In this document: positions 17,393-26,849 of the stretch, one piece after another
Layout of the letters: each line of letters starts with the position of its first letter
Position numbering within the stretch: the first letter of the stretch is position 1
Source of the DNA: Scenedesmus sp. PABB004
Taxonomy: Eukaryota
DNA: 64,000 bases
Direction of reading: 5' to 3'
Assembly: GCA_014905635.1 (NCBI GenBank)
Contig: JABVCE010000029.1
Location: 62,001-126,000, forward strand
Notes under the pieces: generated by a model
Seen by the model: only the letters and a program-made list of their open reading frames with translations
What the model was told of the DNA's origin: nothing
Database searches by the model: none
Program-made: the position numbers and the translations under genes

Positions 17393-17926
17393 GCCGAATG
17401 CGGGCCCCGCGGGCGCGCCGCGCCGGACGGCGGGCGCCGATGCGCCGGCGGGCCGCGAGCAGGGCCCGGCGAGGGGCGTGCGCGGGTCGGGAGGACTGGG
17501 GGCGATGCGGGCGGGCGGCGGAATGCGTCGCTGGGGGCGCCCCGGCGCCCCAGGCGGTTCTCGGCCGAGAGCAGCAGCAGCAGACCCTGGTGTTAGTGCG
17601 AAACCTCGCCCGTCCGCGCTCATTCCCGGCGCTCGAGTCCAGAACCCGCAGATCCGGCGCTCCGAGGCCCAGCCGGCACCGCCGCAGCTCGCCGCGCGCA
17701 GCGCCGCCCGTCTTTGCCGCCCGCCGCCGTGCCGCGCGCCCAGGCAGCCAGCGCCCGAGGCAGCCACCCGCCGGAGCCCCTGCGTCAGGCTCGTGTCGCT
17801 CACGTCACGCACCGCCCGCGGGCCGGCGCCAGCGGCGGACGCAGCGGCAGCAGCAGCGGCAGCAGCGGACGCAGCCGCAGCAGCGGTCGCAGCGCGCGAG
17901 CAGCCGCAGCCTCCGCCCCCGCAGCC

Positions 17927-18472
17927 ATGGGCTGGAGCGAGGCGGTGCACGCCAACCGCAAGCGCGCCGAGCTGGCGCGCGCGCAGGAGGACCTGGGCCG
18001 GCGGCGGCGCGGCTACGAGCTCGAGGCCGCCCCCGACGCGGGCCTGCCGGCGCTCGCCGCGCTCGCGGGCGGCCTCGCCGGCGCGGCGTGGTGGCGCCGC
18101 GGCGGCCACACGCTCGCGGGCCGCGCCTGGCGCGACCTGCCCGGCGTGTCGGCGCTGCTGGCGCTGCTGGGCGGCGAGCCGCGGCGCCGCGCCGGAGCGC
18201 CGGCGCGCGGCGGCGGCGCCAAGCCCAAGGCCGGCAGCGGCCAGCAGCGCGCGGCGCTGCTCAAGGCGGCGGCGGCGCGGCAGGCGGCCGCGAGCGGCGC
18301 CGGCGCCCGGCCGCCGGCGGCGGCGGCGGTGCAGCAGGCGGCGGCGGCGCAGGCGCCCGCGGCGCAGCGGCAGCCCGCCGGCGCGGCCGCCGCCGGGGGC
18401 GGCGGCGGCGGCTGCGGCAGCGGCAGCGGCAGCGGCAAAGCCAAGAAGAAGAAGGCCAAGAAGAAGAAGTGA
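17927..18472 (+). CDS. Hypothetical single-exon protein with one hydrophobic segment and a Lys-rich C-terminus
   Basis: gccATGG start context, coding-like codon usage, LAALAGGLAGAAWW segment, ends KAKKKKAKKKK*; TGTAA at 18590. Confidence 0.6.
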   Translation: MGWSEAVHANRKRAELARAQEDLGRRRRGYELEAAPDAGLPALAALAGGLAGAAWWRRGGHTLAGRAWRDLPGVSALLALLGGEPRRRAGAPARGGGAKPKAGSGQQRAALLKAAAARQAAASGAGARPPAAAAVQQAAAAQAPAAQRQPAGAAAAGGGGGGCGSGSGSGKAKKKKAKKKK

Positions 18473-18652: not shown

Positions 18653-21600
18653 TCACCGCGGCGGCGCCGCCGCCGCCGCCGCCGGGCGCAGCGCGGCAAG
18701 GTCGAGCTGCTCCAGGCTCGCGACGACCAGGTCGGCGTGCGGCGCGAGCGCCTCGGCCGGCAGCGAGTTGGTCACGCCCACAGCAAACGCGCCTGCGCGC
18801 CGCGCGGCGCGGCGGGGGAGGCGTGACGGCGCGCGCGTGGCGCCGGCGCCGGCGGCTGCCCCGTCCCGCGCGGCGGGGCCGTCCCGCCCGCGCGCACCAG
18901 CGCGCCGCGCGGCGACGAGGCCGTGCACAGCGTCCTCGACCACCACCGCGCGGCGCGGGTCGGCGCAGCCGAGGCGGCGCAGCACCTCCACCCAAACGTC
19001 CGGCGCGGGCTTGCCCGCCGCCACCTCAGCCGCGCTCACGACGTGCGCGGGGTCGAGCAGGCGCGCGAGGCCGCTGCTGCGCAGGTTGCGCGCAATCTTG
19101 GCGGGCGCGCCCGACGAGCCCACGCCCACGGGCAGGCCGAGCGCGCGTGCGGACGCGATGAGCGCGGCCGCACCTGCGGCGCGGGCGGCGCGGCGCGGCG
19201 CAGCGGCGGCTGGCGCGGCGCAGCGGCGGCCGGCGCGGCGCGCGGGGCGGGTGCGCCGTGCGCTGCGCTGCGCGCACCCGGCAGCTGGTCAATGCCGCCC
19301 GCGGTCAGCGCCTCGTAGTGCCGCTCCTTGGCGGCCGCCACGTCCGCCGCGATGGCCGCCGTGTCGGCCCAGTCGTCGCTGCGCCGGCGAGTGGCGGCGC
19401 GCGTGGCGCAGCGGCGCGCGGTCGCGGCAGCGGCGGCGGCGGCGGCACCTGCGGAGCGCAGAGCGGCGGCTGCGGCGGCGGCGGCGCACCGCCCCAGCGC
19501 GGCCTTGTAGTGGCGAATGCAGCTGATCACGTCCATGCCAAAGACAGGGGCAAAGTCAGCAGGGAACACATGCAGGATGTCCTGGCCTGCGCGGCGGAGT
19601 GGGCGGGGGTGGGCGGCGCGCGGGCGGGCGGGCGGGCGGGCACGCCGCTCGGTGCGGCCGCCCCGCGCCGCACCCCGCGCCGCACCCGTGACCTCCAAAA
19701 TCGCCCGCCGCAGCGCCTCACAGGAGGCTGCCTCGGTGTCCACCAGCACGCCGTCGCAGTCCAGCACCAGGTGCGTGAACCACGGCGATTCACTCCCGCG
19801 CGCCCGCTGCAGTTCCTGCTGCTCCTGCTGCTCCTGCTGCTCCTGCTGCCCCTGCTGCTCCTCCTCCGCGCCCGCTTGCAGCGCGAGCGCCGCGAGCGCC
19901 GCTGCCACCGCGCCCGGCGGCTCAGCGCCGCCGCCGCCGGCTCGCCCGTTTGCCGCCTGCTGGGCCTGCTCGTCGCCCGCGGCCTGCTGCTGCAGGTCCG
20001 GGAGGAAGTCGCCCGCCGCCTGCGCCCCGTCCCCGTCCGGCTGCTGCGTGCCGCCCGGCGGCGGCTGGCGCCGCTCCGCCAGCGTGGCTGGGAAGCGCAT
20101 GCCCGCCAGCGCTGCGGGCGGGCGCGGGCTGACCGTGTCGAGGCGGGAGAGGTGCAGCTGGAACCCAGGCGTCACCCACGCGCCCGCGCTGTTGGAGATG
20201 CCTGGGTGCGCCGCGCGGGCGCCGTGCTCGGCGGCGAGCGGCGAGCGCCGAGCGGCAGCGGCGGCGGCGGCGGCGGCCTGCCCCTCGGCGCGCACCCGCC
20301 CAGTTGAAGGAGCCCAGACGCGCGGAGCAGCCGCTGCAGTAGAGCTTGCCCGCCACCGCGCCCATGACCTGGTCGGCCATCCAGGCCATCGGCTCGGCAA
20401 ACAGCGACCCCTGCTCGCCGCCGCCGGGGCCGCCGGCGCCGCCGGGCCGCGCCGCCTCCGGCTGCGCTGCCTCTGGCGGCGGCGGCGGCGGCGGCGGCGC
20501 GCGCTCGCGCCGGAAGCGCCGCCGGCCCACGCCCTCCTGGGGCACGACGTTGCGCGCGCTCAGCAGCAGCGCGCGGCACTTGCGGCAGCGGTAGCGGACC
20601 AGCTGCGCGGCGAGGCGGGGCGGCGGCGGTGGCGCAGCGCGCGTTCGGGCTCGCCGCCGCGCGCCCACCGCCGCAAGCGGCCGCAGGGGCGCCGGCGGGG
20701 GCGCGGGCGCCGCCGCGCCGCGCCTGGGCGAGCCCCGCCTCGTCCGGGAGCTCCGCGAAGCTCGCCGGGTCGACCCAGCCCTCCTCCTCCCACTGCCGCG
20801 CGACCTGGCAGCGGGCCGCGGCGGGCGCCGGTCGCGGCGGCCGCGGCGGCCGCGGCGGCCGCGGCGGCCCGCGGCGGCCCGCGGCGGCCCGCGGCGCGCG
20901 GGCCGGCGGCCGCGCGCGCGGCTGTCGCTCCCGCCTTTCCCCTCCCCGGCCTGGTCACCTGGTCCAGCAGGAACTGCTTATAGCCAGGGTGGTCCTCGTC
21001 CAGCTGGCAGCCCATGTCGCCCCAGAGCTCCAGCTGCGCCAGGAAGCCGGCGTTTGGCGCCGCGCCCGGCGCGCGGCCGCGCAGCGCGTCGAGCGCGGCG
21101 GGCAGCGGCAGGCGCTTGGCCCGCATGATCGCGCCCACCACGATGGCGGCGCTGCGCGACGTGCCTGCGCGGGGGGCCCGCGGCGCGCGGAGCGGGTGTG
21201 GCGCAGCGCGCGCGGCGCGGCGCGGCGCGGCGTGGCGTGGCGCGGGCGCGGGCGCGCGCGCGCGCGGGCGCGAGGGCGCGAGCGCGCACGCGCACCCGCA
21301 TGGCAGTGCACCAGCACGCGCGCGCCGGCCTGGCGCAGCGCGCGCTCGAGCCACGTCACCGCGCCCGGGAGCTCGGCCAGGAGGTTGGCGGACTCGGCGT
21401 CCTCCAGCCGCACCTGCCAGTGGCAAACCCCCTCCGGCGGCTCCACGTCGTAGTTGACCACGCTCTGCAGCCGCCGCGCGGGCGGCGGCTCGGCACCCCG
21501 CGCCCGGCGGCAGCAGCGGCGGCCGCAGCGCGGCGCGGCGGCGCACCAGCACGTGCGTGAGCCCCAGCTCGCCCGCCTGCGCCAGCGCGGCCTGCGGCCC

Positions 21601-21716
21601 GATGTACAGGCCTGGCACCGGCGGGGCGGCGGGGCGTGAGGCCTGCAGGGCGCGGCGGGGCCGAGCAGCGGCGCGGTGCTGCCGCACCCACCCTTGGCCA
21701 CGGCGCAGGCCGCCAT
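18653..21716 (-). CDS. YVH1/DUSP12-like dual-specificity phosphatase fused to a C-terminal HAD (CbbY/beta-PGM-like) hydrolase; about 10 exons
   Basis: GLYIG, VLVHCHAG|TSRS, PNAGFLAQLELW, YRCRKCR, GKLYCSGCSARLGSFNW, WVTPGFQLHLSRLD; then LDCDGVLVDTE, GSS, GKPAPD, VEDAVHG. Confidence 0.85.
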
Positions 21717-23001
21717 GCCGCCTGGCGACCCAGGTCAAGCAGGTCGCTCAGTCGGAGCCTACGGGCGCGCGCCGACTGGACTGGCCGGCTGCTGCAGGAC
21801 CGCGGCGCCCTCCGCTGCCGCGCAGCGCTCGCCGCCGCTGCGGTCCCCCCAGGCAGCCCTCTGCGCGGCCTGGACGTTGGCAAGCCTGCAGTCAATTGGG
21901 GCTGAACTGCGCGCCGGGGTGAGCGCGGGCGATGCTGGCGCGCTCTGAGGGGCCGTGCGGAGGCGCCGCGTTACAACGCACGCGGGCGGCCCAGCGCCCG
22001 GACGCGACCACGGGCCCCCGCCCGCGCCAAGTCTACAGCTACGCACGCGCCCTCGCCACGAGCGGCGGCGGCCGCGCGGCCGACACGCCGCGCCGTGCAA
22101 GCTGCGGCGGCCACGCATCTGTACACGCGCAGCCCATCGCCCCTGCACAAGGTGCATCCCCCACAGCAGCAGCAGCCGCGGCGGGCGGGCCCGCCCGCCT
22201 GCGGGCGCCGCCGCCTTCCTGGCGCGCACGCGAGGCCGGCCGCCGCCGGCCGCCGCGCGCAGGCAACAATGCTGGGCCCTGGGAGGCGAGAGAGGAGAGT
22301 TCTAGGCGCGCTAAAGCAGCATAGTGCGCTTCCGCCGCCGCCCGCCCGCCCGCGCGCGCGCGCGCCGCCGCCGCTGCGCGCGGCAGCGGCGGGGGGCGCC
22401 GCGGCGGGCGGCGGCGCATCCCACCCCCGGCAGTGCGAGCGGGAGCAGCCCCGGAGCTGGAGCCCCAGCGCGCGCGGCCGCGCACGCCGTCACCGCTGCG
22501 TCGCCGTCGCTGTGCAGAGAAAACGCCGCCGGGCCGGGCAGGTCCACGCGGGCGACCCTCCAGCGCCGCCGCGCCGCGCACGCCACGCAGGCGTGAACGG
22601 CCCGCGGCCTGCGCCGCGGCTGGTGCGCGAGCACACTCACACGCGCCCCCTCGAGCACACCCCCCAGCAAACGCTGCTCGTGGCAAGCTGCTTGCCGCTG
22701 CTTGCCTGCCTGCCTCCTGCCTGCCTGCCTGCCGACCTGCCTGCACGGGCGGCGCCGCCGCCGCCGCTCACGGGCACGCCGCGCCAAGCCGCGCCGGCCG
22801 CTGCTCGACTGCCGCCGCCGCCGCCGCCGGCGCGGCCGGGCAGCAGGAGCTGGCGCCCGGCCGGCGCGCGCGCGCCGCGCCCGGCACGCCCGACGCGCCC
22901 GCGCGGGCGCGCACCGCCGTGGGCGGCGCACCGCCGCGCCGTGCGTCGCTCGCACGCGCCGCCGTGGCCGCCGCCGCGCGCCACGACGTGCGTCGCGGCG
23001 C

Positions 23002-26000
23002 TCACATGCGGTGCATCGACTGCACCTGGTACGAGGAGGAGCGGTAGATGGTGCCCTGCGGCGCGTAGGCGCCCGCGTGGTGGTAGCCCGCCAGGCTGGC
23101 GCCGCCGCCGCCGCAGTCGGCGGGCGACACGGTCATGCTGCGCACGCAGCTGCCGAGCGTGTCCACGCTGTGGTGGCCGCCCATCTTGGCCGCCGCCTGC
23201 TGCCGCGCCGCCTCCTCCGCCGCCGCCGCCTCCTGCTGCTGCTGCTGCACGGCCGAGAGCTGCTGCTGCAGGAGCTGCTGGTGCTGCTGCGTCGCGAGCT
23301 GCTGCTGCTGCAGCGCCGCCATGCCCGCTGCGCCGCCGCCGGCGCTGCCATGCCGGCCGCCGCCCGCCGCCGCGGCGGCCGCCTGCATCAGCATCTGCTG
23401 CTGCGCCGCCGCCGCGGCGGCCGCGCTCGCCTGCTGCTGCTGCGCCGCCAGCATCTGCTGCTGCGCCAGCAGCTCGCCGTTGCGCGCCGCCATGTAGCGC
23501 GCGGCCTCGTTCTGAAACTCGCCCATGCGCTCGCGCGGCAGGCTCGTCGCCGCCACGATCGCGCGCCCGTTGGTGCCCGTCGGCCGCGGCGCCGCGCTGC
23601 CGGGCGCGCCTGCGGCGCGGAGCGGCGCAGGGGCGGAGGCGCGCGCGCGTCGGCGCCGGCGAGGGGCGTGCGCGCGAGCGCCCGCCGCCGCCGCCTCCGG
23701 GGCTGCCGCTGCTGCTGCTGCTGCTGCCGCTGCTGCCCGCGCCACCCCGCCGCTGCGTCTCACCGCCGCCCTCGAGGTGCATGAACTGGCGCTTGAAGTT
23801 GTCCACCGCGCTGGGGTAGAGGAACGTCGGCAGCCGCCCACCGCTCAGGTAGTCCTGGAGCACCTGGGGGTGGGGGAACACACGCGGCACCGCGATGCGT
23901 GAGCGGCACGCCACCGCCGCTCGCCGCCGCGCGCGCCGCCCACCGGCCCCTGCCGCCCGCGCGCCCTCCTCGCCCCCCGCCCTGCCCGCCCCGCACCTGG
24001 GGGTGGTACTCCAGGATCTCCCTGTAGATGAGCTCCCGCACCTCCTCGATCGCGAGCTTGCGGCGCTCAAACTCAAACGCGAGCTTCGAAATCGCCTGAC
24101 GCATTGGTTCGAACGGGCGCGGCGGTGAGCGCGGCTGCGCGGGCGCGCCGGCGCCGCCGCCGCGCCGCCGCAGGCGCGTGCGCGGGCACACGGGCACGCG
24201 GGCGTCACCTGCGCGGAGGGCTCGCGCACGGGCGAGTGCAGGTTATGGAAGTAGGGGTCCGCCAGCGCCTCCTCCGCGCTCGGGCGGTCGCTCGGGTCAA
24301 ACGCGAGCAGCCGGCGCAGCAGCGCGAGCGCGCCGCGGTCTGCGCGGCGCGGCGCGGGCGGCGCGTGAGCCGCCGCGCCGCCGCCGCCGCCGCTGCGCGC
24401 CGCCGGCCTGGCGCGCGCCGCGGCCTCTGCTGCCCCTCGCCGCGCTGCGCTGCGCGCCGCTGCTGCCGCGCCGTGCGCCGCGCGCCGCTGCCGCCGCGCC
24501 GCGCGCCGCTGCCGCCGCGCCGCACCGGCGCGCGGGAAGAAGGCTGCCAGGTCGACGCCCGGCTTCTTGCGCATGTTGGCCAGGAAGCGCCGCGCCTTCT
24601 CGTTGCGCACCTGCGCGGGGCAGGGCAGCGCGCGGCGGGGCCGCGTAAGCGGCTGCCGGCGAATCGTCGCGCCGCGCCGCCCCGCGCGCCGCCGCCGGCC
24701 AGCGCGTCCGGCAGCCCCCGCCGCGCCCGCGGCGCGGCGCGGCGCTGCGCGTGCCTTTGCGATGACCTCCGCCGCGGGCGTGCCGAGCAGGTCGGTGATG
24801 AGCTCGAGCTGGTGCACCACGTTGCGGCCGGGGAAGAGCGGCTTGCCGAGCAGCACCTCGGCAAAGATGCAGCCCACGCTCCAGGTGTCGATCGCGGGGC
24901 TGTACTTTGCAAAGAAGCTCCCGCACAGCTCCGGCGCCCTGCGCGGCGATATCGCGCAACGATATCGCGCGGCGCGGCGCGGGGGCGCGCGCTGGGCGGG
25001 CGGCCGGCGGCGCGTGCCCCGCGCTGCACACACCGCCCCGGCGGCCCCCTGGCGCCTGGCCACTGCGGCTCCCTGCCGCGGCCCCTGCGGCGCGCACCTG
25101 TACCAGCGCGTCGCGACGTAGTCGGTCCAGAACACGGTGGTGGGCATGTCGTTGAACGCGGGGCGCGCGAGGCCAAAGTCGCAGATCTTGAGCTTGCAGT
25201 CGCTGTTGGCGAGGATGTTCTTGGGCTTCAGGTCGCGGTGAAACACCTTGGCTGCGGGGGCGCGCGCGTGTGTGCGTGGGCGCGGGCGGGGCAGCGCGGG
25301 CGAGGCGCGTGAGCGCCGCGCACGCGGCGCGCGGGCGTCGCGCGCGGCCGCCGCGGGCGGGAGTGCGCGGGCGCCGCGGGGCGCCGCGGTGTGCGCCGTG
25401 CCGCGCGCACCGCTGTGGATGTACTTGAGGCCGCGGAGCATCTGGTAGAGGAAGAACTGGTGGTGCTCGGGCGTGAGGTCGTCGTTGGCCTTGATGACCT
25501 GGGATGACGAAGCAGCGCAGCGGCGGGGTCGGCGGCGGCGGGGCCGGCGGCGGGGGCGGCGGCGCGCGCAGCGAGCGCGCCCGCCGCAGCGAGAACCGAG
25601 CTGCCACCCTGCCGCCGCCGCGCTGCCGCCGCGCTGCCGCCGCCGCTCCGCTGGTGCGCGCCTGGTGGAGGTCTGTCTCCATGAGCTCAAACACGACGTA
25701 GATGTCCTTGAAGTCCCGGGGGCTGGGCGGGAGCATGATGTGCTTGATCTCAACCACGTCTGTGGAGCAGGGCAGGGACAGGGACGCAGGGCGGGCGCAG
25801 GGCGGAGACGGCGCGGCGTGGGCGCGGCGCGGCAGCGGCAGCGGCAGCGGCGCCGGCGCTGGGAGCGGCGGCGGCGGCGGCGCGGGTAATGCGCGCGCGC
25901 GCGCGCACCCGGGTGCTTGAGCAGGCGCAGGAGCTTGATCTCGCGCAGGATGCGCGTCGCGTCGGAGACGTGCTCAAAGACGTTGTTGATCTTTTTGATC

Positions 26001-26849
26001 GCGACCTTCTCACCCGTGTAGTTGTCGATCGCGCTGCACACGACGCCGTAGCTGCCCTTGCCGATGATCTCGACCAGCTTGTACCTGCGGCGCGCGCGGC
26101 GGCGCGGCGCGGCGGCGGCGCGGCGGGTGGCGGGGTGGCGGTGAGGGGAAGGGGGCGGCGGGGAGGGGCGCACGGGAGGGGGCGCGCCGCGGCGGCGCGG
26201 CCGCGCAGAGCGCGCGCGGCCGCCGCTGCTCTCTGCTGCGCTGCGCTGCGCTGCGCGCGCGGCCGCCGCCGGCGCCGGTGCGCCGCCGGGCCCCGCGAGC
26301 CTCGCGGTCGGGGGGTCGCACGACCGTGGCTGGCGCGGCGGCGGGGGGCGCGGGGGCGCCCCGGCAGGCGCGGCCCCCTGGGAGCTGCAGCTGCTGCCGG
26401 CCTTTCCGCCGCGCCGGCGCCGCGTGGCGCGGCCCGGCGGCGTCCGGGGACCCTGGCGCGGCCCTGGCTGCCGGCCGGCGCGCCACCGCGGCCGCGGCGG
26501 GCCGCAGCTGCGCGCCAGGGCGGTGCCGTGGCCGGCATGCGGCCGCCCCCACCTGCTGGCCTCGCCATAGTCCGTGAAGAACTCGCGCTGGTCCATCCTG
26601 CTGCGCGACGAAGCCTGTGCGCGGCGCGGCGGCGCCGGCGCGAGGCGTGGGGCGCGGCGCCGGGGGGCTGGCAGCAGCGCACGGCTCGCGCTCGTGGGGG
26701 CGCACCTTGGGCCGCGCGCCGCGCTGCGCCGCCTCAAGCGGCTGCTCCGGCTGCGCCTGGGGCGCCTGGGGCGGCGCCGGCTGCGCAGGCGCCTCTGGCT
26801 GCTCGCGGGAAGGGCGCAACCACGCTGCTACGGCTTCAGCAATCGACAT
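23002..26849 (-). CDS. Group D (TDY) mitogen-activated protein kinase; about 12 exons
   Basis: [61 protein letters not shown]; start could instead be the Met at ~26596. Confidence 0.93.

What the first reader, a model, noticed from the sequence alone, without database searches (positions are those of the whole stretch)
18653..21716. YVH1/DUSP12 fused to a HAD small-molecule phosphatase: two unrelated phosphatases in one protein
Seen: one stop-free exon (19686-20201) carries both the end of the YVH1 zinc domain (WVTPGFQLHLSRLD) and HAD motif I (LDCDGVLVDTE), so the fusion does not depend on my splice choice. Both catalytic motifs look intact. Established: Yvh1/DUSP12, a 60S maturation factor, normally ends right after the zinc domain.
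Basis: partly seen in the sequence, partly recalled or inferred. Interest (0 to 1): 0.7.

Follow-up and report, generated by a model that had tools for sequence, protein, structure and literature searches.

The report
Conserved green-algal YVH1–HAD phosphatase fusion gene
This green-alga gene really does join the ribosome-assembly factor YVH1/DUSP12 to a second, unrelated HAD-type phosphatase in one reading frame, and the same fusion is predicted across green algae of the phylum Chlorophyta, so it is old and conserved but has not been studied.

Summary
On the minus strand an 11-exon, 660-aa gene (21716 to 18653) has one exon (20201-19686) that holds the end of the YVH1 zinc domain, a 116-aa Ala/Gln/Gly-rich linker and HAD motif I.

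Other evidence supports the fusion:
- The linker has coding-type codon-position composition in the right frame.
- The best relative (Scenedesmus, 655 aa) is 71-72% identical in both halves.
- 18 of 20 hits of one search and 13 of 20 of another carry DSPc plus HAD domains. They come from Chlorophyceae, Trebouxiophyceae, Ulvophyceae, Tetraselmis and Picocystis.
- Several hits are uninterrupted ORFs on short contigs.
- Both catalytic sites are conserved in 32 fused orthologues.

The gene is therefore one member of a phylum-wide, database-visible architecture. Five literature searches aimed at the fusion found no paper on it.

Open points: no RNA data could be obtained for this organism. Transcriptomes of three other green algae, one of them from the family of the nearest relative, contain complete YVH1-only ORFs, so shorter isoforms or secondary fissions are possible. 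The HAD substrate is unknown.

The parts
21692..21716 (-). Exon 1 with start codon (ATG 21716-21714); MAACAVAKG
   Evidence: The N-terminus is identical to Scenedesmus P0003 MAACAVAKG.
21547..21611 (-). Exon 2, start of the DSP domain (LYIGPQAAL...THVL)
21296..21464 (-). Exon 3, DSP domain up to the first half of the P-loop (VLVHCHAG; catalytic Cys codon 21305-21303)
   Evidence: DSPc, E 3.5e-5 on the raw frame. The Cys is invariant in 32 orthologues.
20959..21164 (-). Exon 4, second half of the P-loop (TSRS) and the rest of the DSP domain
   Evidence: DSPc, E 7.9e-7.
20724..20804 (-). Exon 5, inter-domain segment (ARQWEEEGWVDPASFAELP...). It is followed by the only GC-AG intron (20723-20603).
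   Evidence: The junction AQ|LVRY fits Scenedesmus and Tetradesmus.
20296..20602 (-). Exon 6, YVH1 zinc-binding domain (YRCRKC ... GKLYCSGCSARLGSFNWAG)
   Evidence: The query: 61% identical to P0003. CxxC pairs are conserved. P0003 matches yeast Yvh1 6n8m_Y at E 9.6e-31.
19686..20201 (-). Exon 7, the junction exon. It holds the end of the zinc domain (20201-20137), the linker (20136-19789) and the start of the HAD domain with motif I DCDGVLVDTE (19761-19732).
   Evidence: Other organisms have the same exon as an uninterrupted ORF (P0057, P0160, P0163).
19789..20136 (-). Linker of 116 aa, 78% A/G/Q/P/E/D. It contains a conserved tail PPAALAGMRFPA, a short motif DFLPDL (20010-19993) and a 9-nt tandem repeat (19814-19862) that encodes QQE repeats.
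   Evidence: The motifs are shared with P0003, P0057 and P0163.
19490..19586 (-). Exon 8, HAD cap region (QDILHVFPADFAPVFGMDV...)
19278..19378 (-). Exon 9, HAD cap region (DDWADT...KERHYEALTAGGIDQLPG)
18898..19173 (-). Exon 10, HAD core with motif II (VGSSG), motif III (GKPAPD) and motif IV (VVEDAVHGL..AG)
   Evidence: PF00702 46 bits (cut-off 26.4) and PF13419 34.4 bits (cut-off 23.8). TIGR01509 34.8 bits (cut-off 29.4). Invariant residues.
18653..18792 (-). Exon 11, end of the HAD domain and stop codon (TGA 18655-18653)

Best explanation
One nuclear gene of a very G+C-rich green alga, whose nearest relatives are Scenedesmus and Tetradesmus, encodes a 660-aa two-module protein.

The N-terminal 306 residues are a canonical YVH1/DUSP12: a dual-specificity phosphatase domain plus a Cys-rich zinc domain. 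By homology to yeast and human, this module binds the pre-60S subunit through the zinc domain and drives the Mrt4-to-P0 exchange at the ribosomal stalk.

The C-terminal ~230 residues are a complete, catalytically competent HAD-IA (variant 3, beta-phosphoglucomutase-like fold) phosphatase. Enzymes of this type act on small phosphorylated metabolites, most likely a sugar phosphate or a related compound.

The two modules are joined by a fast-evolving low-complexity linker. I read it as a flexible tether, so that the modules work side by side rather than as one active site.

The fusion arose early in Chlorophyta. The donor was a stand-alone HAD gene whose relatives remain separate in Chlorokybus and Galdieria.

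Shown: the gene structure, both domain assignments, the intact motifs, and conservation of the fused architecture. Inferred: the 60S role, a small-molecule substrate, independence of the two modules, and that the full-length mRNA is the main product in this organism.
For: Gene model with consistent splice sites and coding periodicity through the linker.

Domains:
- DSPc on exons 3-4; HAD_2 and Hydrolase above the curated cut-offs on exon 10.
- TIGR01509 HAD-IA-v3 above cut-off.
- The orthologue P0003 matches yeast Yvh1 on the pre-60S particle (6n8m_Y, E 9.6e-31, query 75-315) and HAD phosphatases such as 3e58 (E 2.7e-11).

Orthologues:
- The window model is 71% (N half) and 72% (HAD half) identical to Scenedesmus P0003, and 39-50% / 56-63% identical to 15 more distant fused proteins (17 orthologues).
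- 18 of 20 hits and 13 of 20 list PF00782 + PF13419 + PF00702.
- The named taxa span Chlorophyceae, Trebouxiophyceae, Ulvophyceae, Chlorodendrophyceae and Picocystophyceae.

The fusion does not rest on splice prediction. Uninterrupted fused ORFs lie on short contigs: 727 aa on 2577 nt, 568 aa on 2427 nt, 531 aa on 2261 nt, 685 aa on 2537 nt and 513 aa on 1747 nt. Single-exon ORFs spanning the junction also exist (P0057, P0160, P0163).

Conservation in 32 fused sequences:
- Invariant: the DSP Cys and acid Asp, the second pair of zinc-domain CxxC cysteines, the HAD nucleophile Asp, the motif II Ser-Ser, the motif III Lys and the motif IV Glu.
- Conserved in at least 90% of the sequences: the first pair of zinc-domain CxxC cysteines, the DSP P-loop Arg, the second motif I Asp and the motif IV Asp.

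Linker: length from the end of the zinc domain to motif I is 25-202 residues in the 22 of 33 sequences where my motif search found both ends. The ESM Atlas's own model of whole P0003 has pTM 0.41, which is weakly in line with no fixed inter-domain arrangement.

Yvh1 biology: the zinc domain is required, and phosphatase activity is dispensable, for 60S binding and Mrt4 release (PMC2753163, passages read).

Stand-alone HAD relatives: Galdieria P0060 (46% identity) and Chlorokybus P0087 (47%).
Against: No RNA or protein evidence was obtained for this organism. At 80% G+C an open frame proves nothing.

Complete YVH1-only ORFs that stop inside or just after the linker occur in three transcriptomes:
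- Flechtneria rotunda (Scenedesmaceae, the family of the closest fused relative): 3 transcripts.
- Tetraselmis astigmatica.
- Stichococcus sp. RCC1054: 2 isoforms that diverge within the linker.

The Dunaliella locus is annotated with three isoforms, one of them lacking the YVH1 part.

Stand-alone HAD copies nest among fused ones in the HAD tree (Tetrabaena x2, P0046, P0054).

A crude splice-site matrix built from only 10 introns finds GC-type donor-like sites in the linker (19946 and 19804, score 5.8) that score above the one true GC donor (4.1). An alternative intron therefore cannot be excluded.

No specific HAD equivalog model reaches its cut-off, so the substrate class is only a family-level guess.

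Most fused orthologues are automatic gene predictions.
Confidence: 0.72

Rival explanations
1. The locus makes both a full-length fusion and a YVH1-only protein, and perhaps a HAD-only protein. It would do so by alternative splicing, intron retention, polyadenylation or an internal start within the linker, so that the fusion is conditional. This overlaps with the best explanation rather than excluding it.
For: YVH1-only complete ORFs occur in three chlorophyte transcriptomes, two of them with different tails after a common point in the linker (Stichococcus P0065 and P0220).

Dunaliella is annotated with isoforms of 365, 384 and 508 aa from one locus.

Tetraselmis striata and Picocystis models carry .t2 labels.

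GC-type donor-like sites occur in the window's linker.

An in-frame ATG lies in the conserved tail (ALAGMRFPA).
Against: In the window the linker frame has no stop. No GT donor inside the linker reaches the scores of the true GT donors (5.8-11.0); the best GT-type candidates in exon 7 lie in the HAD-coding part. The Met in the tail is not conserved outside Scenedesmaceae-like sequences. The transcriptome ORFs could reflect lineage-specific nonsense mutations in CAG-rich linkers rather than regulation.
Confidence: 0.3
2. There are two separate genes or proteins. On this view the apparent fusion is an artefact of stop-codon poverty at 80% G+C and of gene predictors merging neighbours.
For: Stop-free frames of this length are expected by chance. 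No RNA evidence was obtained. YVH1-only transcripts occur in a close relative.
Against: YVH1 would have no stop codon. Its frame is open from 20559 to 19036, and a second frame is also open across the linker.

The linker has coding-type composition in frame.

The same junction is an uninterrupted ORF in several other organisms, including Q-rich, lower-GC linkers (P0057, P0003) and short contigs barely longer than the ORF.

Linker motifs (the PPAALAxxRxP tail and DFLPDL) are conserved.
Confidence: 0.06
3. The HAD module is not a metabolite phosphatase. It would act on a protein or on a ribosome-bound target, or serve as a non-catalytic binding or regulatory domain for YVH1.
For: The Yvh1 phosphatase domain itself has no firmly established substrate (abstract of PMC9731860, seen in the listing). 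Some HAD enzymes are protein phosphatases (recalled, not tested here). Fusion to a ribosome assembly factor suggests a shared site of action.
Against: All four HAD catalytic motifs are invariant or nearly so in 32 orthologues. That argues against a dead domain.

Sequence matches are to capped HAD-IA / HAD_2 enzymes that act on small molecules (sugar phosphatases, pyrophosphatase, pseudouridine-5'-phosphatase HDHD1A).

Close stand-alone relatives exist without any YVH1.
Confidence: 0.1

Closest known systems
Saccharomyces cerevisiae Yvh1 / human DUSP12 (hYVH1)
   Same: N-terminal dual-specificity phosphatase domain with an HCxxGxxRS loop, followed by a Cys-rich zinc-binding domain. The orthologue P0003 aligns to yeast Yvh1 in the pre-60S structures (6n8m_Y, E 9.6e-31). 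Role known from the literature: 60S binding through the zinc domain, and Mrt4 release (PMC2753163).
   Different: Yvh1 and DUSP12 end about a dozen residues after the zinc domain. Here the frame continues through a 116-aa linker into a ~230-aa HAD phosphatase.
Predicted chlorophyte orthologues, for example 'Dual specificity phosphatase 12' of Chlorella sorokiniana (P0013, 658 aa), 'HAD-like domain-containing protein' of Scenedesmus sp. NREL 46B-D3 (P0003, 655 aa) and CHLNCDRAFT_138334 of Chlorella variabilis (P0021)
   Same: Identical architecture of DSPc, zinc domain, variable linker and HAD_2. Identity to P0003 is 71-72% in both halves.
   Different: These are automatic predictions, and my searches found no experimental study of them. 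The window's copy differs only in extreme G+C content and in linker sequence.
HAD-IA variant 3 / beta-phosphoglucomutase-like small-molecule phosphatases (E. coli YniC/HxpB-type sugar phosphatases, Bacteroides BT2127 pyrophosphatase, human HDHD1A)
   Same: Motifs I-IV, and a match to the whole HAD_2 profile. TIGR01509 is above cut-off. PDB matches 3e58, 3qu2, 1te2 and 3l5k at E 1e-8 to 3e-11.
   Different: No equivalog model reaches its cut-off (best: TIGR02009 at 75 bits against 153). The specific substrate is therefore unknown, and none of these enzymes is fused to a YVH1.
Stand-alone orthologues of the HAD module: Galdieria sulphuraria 'beta-phosphoglucomutase' (P0060, 240 aa) and Chlorokybus atmophyticus P0087 (218 aa)
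   Same: 46-47% identity to the HAD half of P0003, including the family-specific stretch SCE.L..A....TG.D.PH.FP.D.
   Different: Not fused. Their function is also untested.

Membership tests
YVH1/DUSP12 subfamily of atypical dual-specificity phosphatases | DSP catalytic domain with the Cys-x5-Arg loop (HCxxGxSRS) and an upstream acid Asp | tested here: met
   DSPc hits on both exon frames. HCHAG|TSRS in the spliced model. In 32 orthologues Cys, Gly, Ser and Asp are invariant and Arg is conserved in at least 90%.
YVH1/DUSP12 subfamily of atypical dual-specificity phosphatases | C-terminal Cys-rich zinc-binding domain directly after the DSP domain | tested here: met
   Exon 6 and the start of exon 7 carry YRCRKC ... 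LYCSGC ... WVTPGFQLH. P0003 aligns to yeast Yvh1 residues 109-352. The window is 71% identical to P0003 over this half.
YVH1/DUSP12 subfamily of atypical dual-specificity phosphatases | Protein ends shortly after the zinc domain (two-domain architecture) | tested here: not met
   The frame continues into the linker and the HAD domain. This is the variant feature.
YVH1/DUSP12 subfamily of atypical dual-specificity phosphatases | Binds pre-60S and releases Mrt4 | not testable with these tools
   Known for yeast and human only (PMC2753163).
HAD superfamily, subfamily IA variant 3 (Pfam HAD_2 / TIGR01509) | Motif I DxDG(V/T), motif II Ser/Thr, motif III Lys, motif IV (E)D | tested here: met
   DCDGVLVDTE, VGSSG, GKPAPD and VVEDAVHGL are present in the model. 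All are invariant or at least 90% conserved in 32 orthologues.
HAD superfamily, subfamily IA variant 3 (Pfam HAD_2 / TIGR01509) | Score above the curated family cut-off | tested here: met
   On the window's exon-10 frame alone: PF00702 46.0 bits (cut-off 26.4) and PF13419 34.4 bits (cut-off 23.8); TIGR01509 34.8 bits (cut-off 29.4). For P0003: PF00702 77.1 and PF13419 69.1 bits.
Beta-phosphoglucomutase (TIGR01990) / PGMB-YqaB subfamily (TIGR02009) | Score above the equivalog or subfamily cut-off | tested here: not met
   P0003 scores 58.3 bits against a cut-off of 189.4, and 75.4 against 153.35. It should not be filed as a beta-PGM, whatever some source names say.
CbbY (xylulose-1,5-bisphosphate phosphatase) | Orthology to a characterised CbbY | not tested
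   The only link is a source name on a Tetrabaena stand-alone copy. No CbbY reference was compared.

The most novel reading that the evidence does not exclude
The phylum-wide fusion may be a Rosetta-stone link. It would show that the conserved but functionally unexplained phosphatase side of YVH1/DUSP12 belongs to carbohydrate-phosphate metabolism.

On this reading the DSP domain and the sugar-phosphatase-like HAD domain act on related phospho-sugar or phospho-glucan substrates, or sense them. That would couple the last steps of 60S maturation to carbon status.

It would tie in with the reported interaction of DUSP12 with glucokinase (Munoz-Alonso 2000, as cited and discussed in PMC2753163). 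It would also tie in with other atypical DSPs that act on glucans (recalled, not tested here).

Alternative processing in the linker (YVH1-only transcripts) could switch the coupling on and off.
Probability: 0.1. Interest if true: 0.7.

Novelty: new variant of a known kind. Interest (0 to 1): 0.4.

Why it matters
Yvh1/DUSP12 is a conserved 60S assembly factor whose phosphatase domain is dispensable for the known ribosome role, and no direct substrate of it has been firmly established. A second, unrelated phosphatase has stayed fused to it across much of the phylum Chlorophyta. That is a natural hint about which pathway YVH1 is connected to. It is easy to test, for example in Chlamydomonas or Chlorella, by deleting the HAD module, screening substrates and following 60S maturation.

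For genome annotation, the case shows that in an 80% G+C genome open frames carry no weight, and that comparative evidence is needed to accept or reject a fusion.

As an isolated gene it is not a discovery. The architecture is already visible in public protein sets.

Tried and rejected
RNA evidence: the look-up of sequencing runs for 18653-21716 listed no RNA holder. No whole genome is held for the window.

Docking of the two modules: one complex-prediction job (YVH1 part against HAD part of the Tetraselmis striata orthologue, with alignment A1) came back not folded and gave no verdict. Whether the modules touch is left open.

Earlier notes of this scan, searched by place, by words and by sequence, held nothing on this gene.

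Literature: five searches aimed at the fusion gave only listings with no paper describing a YVH1-HAD fusion:
- YVH1 / haloacid dehalogenase / Chlamydomonas
- DUSP12 / green algae / HAD
- dual specificity phosphatase / haloacid dehalogenase / fusion protein / Chlorophyta
- specificity protein phosphatase 12 plus algal genera
- phosphatome / Chlamydomonas / dual-specificity / HAD

The one Ostreococcus paper that mentions DUSP12 (PMC10540734, one passage read) says nothing about domain architecture. Subscription-only papers and supplements were not searched.

Rejected readings:
- A gene on the plus strand. Long plus-strand frames exist, but Pfam hits came only from minus-strand frames among those tested, and long frames are expected by chance.
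- A GT donor for intron 5. No in-phase GT donor fits, whereas a GC-AG intron (20723-20603) gives a junction that matches the orthologues.
- Filing the HAD module as beta-phosphoglucomutase or any other equivalog. All are below cut-off.

The tree of the HAD module (48 rows) has an unresolved backbone, with 14 of 45 inner branches open and long branches for Galdieria and others. It does not root the fusion event. It supports only local statements, such as the window grouping with Scenedesmus and Tetradesmus (99/100) and the Tetrabaena stand-alone copies lying inside the Volvocales group (100/98).

The splice-site matrix rests on 10 introns and is only indicative.
Full report
**What is in the sequence**

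The window is about 80% G+C throughout (0.72-0.85 in 2-kb steps). No whole genome is held for it.

On the minus strand, a start codon at 21716 opens a gene that I could model with 11 exons: 21716-21692, 21611-21547, 21464-21296, 21164-20959, 20804-20724, 20602-20296, 20201-19686, 19586-19490, 19378-19278, 19173-18898 and 18792-18653.
- The CDS is 1983 nt, or 660 aa, and ends at TGA 18655-18653.
- The ten introns are 80-154 nt long.
- Nine introns are GT-AG, mostly GTGCGC...CAG.
- Intron 5 (20723-20603) is GC-AG.

In frame it reads ISNSAGAWVTPGFQLHLSRLD, then 116 residues of linker, then SPWFTHLVLDCDGVLVDTEAASCEALRRAILEVT. The coordinates and both motifs are therefore confirmed.

**Is a stop-free exon meaningful here? 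No.**

Over all six frames of the window, stop codons occur at 0.0081 per codon.
- A run of 171 codons is stop-free by chance with P = 0.25, and the 126 codons between the two motifs with P = 0.36.
- 66% of all codon positions in the window lie in stop-free frames of at least 171 codons.
- A 1396-codon open frame lies next door.

What does carry weight is composition by codon position.
- The exons have G+C of about 0.66-0.87 at position 1, 0.39-0.65 at position 2 and 0.78-1.0 at position 3.
- The introns are 0.77-0.98 at all three positions.
- The linker (20136-19789) reads 0.92/0.55/0.91 in the frame set by its flanks. Every 90-nt window across it keeps position 2 at 0.30-0.67.

The linker thus looks like coding sequence in that frame and not like an intron.

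A second point is that YVH1 has nowhere to stop. Its frame is open from 20559 to 19036, a second frame is also open across the linker, and only the third frame has stops.

**Domains**

Pfam finds DSPc on the frames of exons 3 and 4. It finds Hydrolase and HAD_2 above their curated cut-offs on the frame of exon 10. NCBIfam places that fragment in HAD-IA variant 3, with TIGR01509 at 34.8 bits against a cut-off of 29.4.

The DSP loop is HCHAG|TSRS, split by intron 3. The HAD motifs are DCDGVLVDTE, VGSSG, GKPAPD and VVEDAVHGL..AG.

**Relatives**

*First search.* The zinc-domain exon was used as the query and longer proteins were allowed.
- It gave 7 hits among 1923 candidates.
- One hit, P0003 of Scenedesmus sp. 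NREL 46B-D3 (655 aa), carries PF00782, PF13419 and PF00702.
- P0003 has the same layout as the window, down to MAACAVAKG at the start and PWF..LVLDCDGVLVDTE after a Gln-rich linker.

*Second search.* P0003 was the query, and the search was limited to proteins of 360-1147 aa, so unfused forms could not appear.
- It gave 20 hits.
- 18 of them list all three Pfam families.
- The other two (Volvox africanus, Tetrabaena socialis) list only the HAD families, but still score on my YVH1 profile.

*Third search.* An environmental fused protein, P0040, was the query.
- It gave 20 hits, and 13 list all three families.
- The other seven were one DSPc-only fragment, one with HAD families only, one YVH1-only transcript, two HAD-FGGY kinase proteins and two without Pfam hits.

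*Exhaustive representative search.* The query was P0003. It found 27,753 proteins at E ≤ 0.001 and 144 at E ≤ 1e-30.

*Named organisms with the fused form* (names as given by the sources):
- Scenedesmus, Tetradesmus, Gonium, Pleodorina, Chlamydomonas incerta, C. eustigma, Chlamydomonas sp. UWO 241, Volvox reticuliferus, Edaphochlamys, Dunaliella.
- Micractinium, three Chlorella species, Parachlorella, Picochlorum.
- Ulva, Ostreobium, Bryopsis.
- Tetraselmis striata and Picocystis.

The taxonomy tool places Tetraselmis in Chlorodendrophyceae and Picocystis in Picocystophyceae. The class assignments of the other genera are from my own knowledge.

I built profile HMMs from the two halves of a 32-sequence alignment and ran them over 223 sequences: the 222 stored proteins, which include cluster duplicates and the raw window frame, plus the window model. 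Of these, 69 scored on both halves, 31 on HAD only and 122 on YVH1 only. The 32 alignment members match by construction.

**The window against its orthologues**

The spliced model is 71% identical to P0003 over the YVH1 half (214 of 303 residues) and 72% over the HAD half (169 of 235). Against Tetradesmus it is 68% and 74%. Against 15 more distant fused proteins it is 39-50% and 56-63%.

In a maximum-likelihood tree of the HAD module the window groups with Scenedesmus and Tetradesmus, with support 99/100.

In the alignment of 32 fused proteins the following columns are invariant:
- DSP domain: the catalytic Cys, the acid Asp, and the loop Gly and Ser.
- Zinc domain: two cysteines.
- HAD domain: the nucleophile Asp, the motif II Ser-Ser, the motif III Lys and the motif IV Glu.

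The second motif I Asp, the motif IV Asp, the DSP Arg and two further zinc-domain cysteines are conserved in at least 90% of the sequences. Both active sites have therefore been kept under selection in the fused state.

**Does the fusion depend on splice prediction? No.**

Several fused proteins are uninterrupted ORFs on contigs barely longer than the ORF:
- P0019, 727 aa on 2577 nt
- P0040, 568 aa on 2427 nt
- P0198, 597 aa on 2362 nt
- P0199, 568 aa on 2330 nt
- P0200, 542 aa on 2220 nt
- P0036, 531 aa on 2261 nt
- P0217, 685 aa on 2537 nt
- P0210, 513 aa on 1747 nt

For intron-rich algae such contigs are most simply read as assembled cDNA. That is an inference, because the sources do not say so.

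Fragments P0057, P0160 and P0163 are single-ORF calls that cover exactly the equivalent of exon 7. They run from ...GI(S/T)N... through the linker to ...LQVTG and into HAD motif I. The junction exon itself is therefore conserved.

**The linker**

The linker is 78% Ala, Gly, Gln, Pro, Glu and Asp. It contains a 9-nt tandem repeat (19814-19862, 5.4 copies) that encodes QQE repeats.

Among the 22 of 33 sequences in which my motif search found both ends, the distance from the end of the zinc domain to motif I ranges from 25 to 202 residues, with a median of 92.5. The other 11 sequences were missed by my pattern; they were not excluded for any biological reason.

Two short pieces are conserved:
- The tail PPAALAG(M/I)R.P directly after the zinc domain, seen in most orthologues.
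- Within the Scenedesmus-like group, a motif DFLPDL (window 20010-19993). It reads DFLPDL in P0057, DFLLDL in P0003 and DLLSDL in P0163.

The ESM Atlas's own model of whole P0003 has pTM 0.41 and mean pLDDT 0.67. That is weakly in line with two folded modules without a fixed mutual arrangement.

**What argues for caution**

In other chlorophytes, transcriptome-derived ORFs marked complete encode YVH1 alone:
- Three transcripts of Flechtneria rotunda, which belongs to Scenedesmaceae, the family of the window's nearest relatives. All end 45 residues into the linker (P0030, P0175, P0176).
- One transcript of Tetraselmis astigmatica, which ends right after the conserved tail (P0052).
- Two isoforms of Stichococcus sp. 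RCC1054, which share the sequence up to a point in the linker and then diverge. Neither reaches a HAD domain (P0065, P0220).

The Dunaliella locus is annotated with three isoforms of 365, 384 and 508 aa.

Stand-alone HAD copies sit among fused ones in the tree:
- two Tetrabaena copies inside the Volvocales group (100/98);
- P0054 with the Picochlorum group (100/100);
- P0046 next to a Chlorella-group member, with weak support.

These may be secondary fissions or duplications, alternative products, or partial gene calls. I cannot tell which.

In the window, a rough splice-site matrix from its own ten introns gives these results:
- No GT donor in the linker matches the true GT donors (5.8-11.0). 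The best GT candidates, at 19744 and 19768, lie in HAD-coding sequence.
- GC-type candidates at 19946 and 19804 score 5.8, above the one true GC donor (4.1).

**How it most likely works**

The N-terminal module has every sequence feature of Yvh1/DUSP12. Its orthologue aligns to yeast Yvh1 as seen on pre-60S particles (6n8m_Y, E 9.6e-31). In yeast and human cells the zinc domain binds the 60S subunit and is required to release Mrt4 so that P0 can load. The phosphatase activity is dispensable for this (PMC2753163, passages read). I infer the same role here.

The C-terminal module is a complete HAD-IA enzyme. The only model above cut-off is the broad TIGR01509. The best matches below cut-off are beta-phosphoglucomutase-family hydrolases, hexitol and sugar phosphatases and an inorganic diphosphatase. 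The solved relatives are of the same kinds.

I therefore take the HAD module to be a small-molecule phosphomonoesterase, probably for a sugar phosphate or similar metabolite. It is tethered to YVH1 by a disordered linker, so the fusion gives co-expression and co-location rather than a joint active site.

The closest stand-alone relatives are in Galdieria (46%) and Chlorokybus (47%), a red alga and a streptophyte. This fits a fusion event early in Chlorophyta. The tree is too poorly resolved to prove a single origin.

**A bolder reading**

Lo et al. note that DUSP12 interacts with and accelerates glucokinase, and they raise the idea of signalling between ribosome biogenesis and glycolysis (PMC2753163). 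The abstract of PMC9731860 (listing) states that no direct hYVH1 substrate is firmly established.

A sugar-phosphatase-like enzyme kept fused to YVH1 across much of a phylum could be a Rosetta-stone hint that YVH1 is wired to carbohydrate-phosphate metabolism. Nothing here tests this. I give it about 10%.

**Novelty**

The architecture is present in public protein sets under automatic names such as 'protein-tyrosine-phosphatase', 'Dual specificity phosphatase 12' and 'HAD-like domain-containing protein'.

Five full-text searches aimed at the fusion found no paper that describes it. These cover only the open-access library and bioRxiv, and I saw only listings, plus one passage of PMC10540734. 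Earlier notes of this scan hold nothing on it.

The window's gene is thus one more member of an undescribed but conserved variant of the YVH1 family.

**Verdict**

- Observation: confirmed.
- Interest: moderate, 0.4. The fusion is real, ancient and unstudied, and it touches an open question about YVH1. But it is a domain fusion of two known families, it is already visible in databases, and it lacks any transcript or functional evidence here.

Noticed in passing
window 17597-18472 (+) and 18653 (-): A plus-strand frame ending in a Lys-rich tail (...GKAKKKKAKKKK, stop after 18472) converges on the YVH1-HAD gene. The two stop codons lie only about 180 nt apart, so the 3' UTRs of the two genes probably overlap or abut.
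   Followed up: no
whole window; for example 22637-26827 (-): At about 80% G+C, stop-free frames of hundreds of codons occur in all six frames: 32 frames of at least 507 codons, and a 1396-codon frame next to this gene. Open frames alone cannot be used to call genes or fusions in this genome.
   Followed up: partly
window 20603-20723 (-): Intron 5 appears to be a GC-AG intron (donor GCGCGG). No in-phase GT donor fits, and the resulting junction AQ|LVRY agrees with Scenedesmus and Tetradesmus.
   Followed up: partly
window 19993-20010 (-); P0003, P0057, P0163: A short motif, DFLPDL, is conserved inside the otherwise unconserved linker of Scenedesmus-like sequences (DFLPDL, DFLLDL, DLLSDL). Volvocales linkers share a different acidic motif, EEQLPEP.LDL. 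These may be short linear motifs, for example an export or binding signal. Their function is unknown.
   Followed up: no
window 19814-19862: A 9-nt tandem repeat (TCCTGCTGC on the plus strand, 5.4 copies, 95% matches) encodes the QQE repeats of the linker. This suggests that linker length changes by slippage.
   Followed up: no
P0030, P0175, P0176 (Flechtneria rotunda); P0052 (Tetraselmis astigmatica); P0065, P0220 (Stichococcus sp. RCC1054): Transcriptome ORFs marked complete encode YVH1 alone and stop inside or just after the linker. The two Stichococcus isoforms diverge after a common point in the linker. This could be alternative processing or secondary fission.
   Followed up: partly
P0050, P0172, P0173 and P0027 (Tetrabaena socialis): Tetrabaena has three near-identical stand-alone copies of the HAD module (233-246 aa, two of them on one contig) besides a protein that carries both modules. 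In the tree the stand-alone copies fall inside the Volvocales fused group.
   Followed up: partly
P0207, P0208 (unnamed Logan proteins, 771 and 758 aa): These distant hits combine a HAD_2 domain with FGGY carbohydrate-kinase domains (PF00370, PF02782). That is a different HAD fusion, to a sugar kinase.
   Followed up: no
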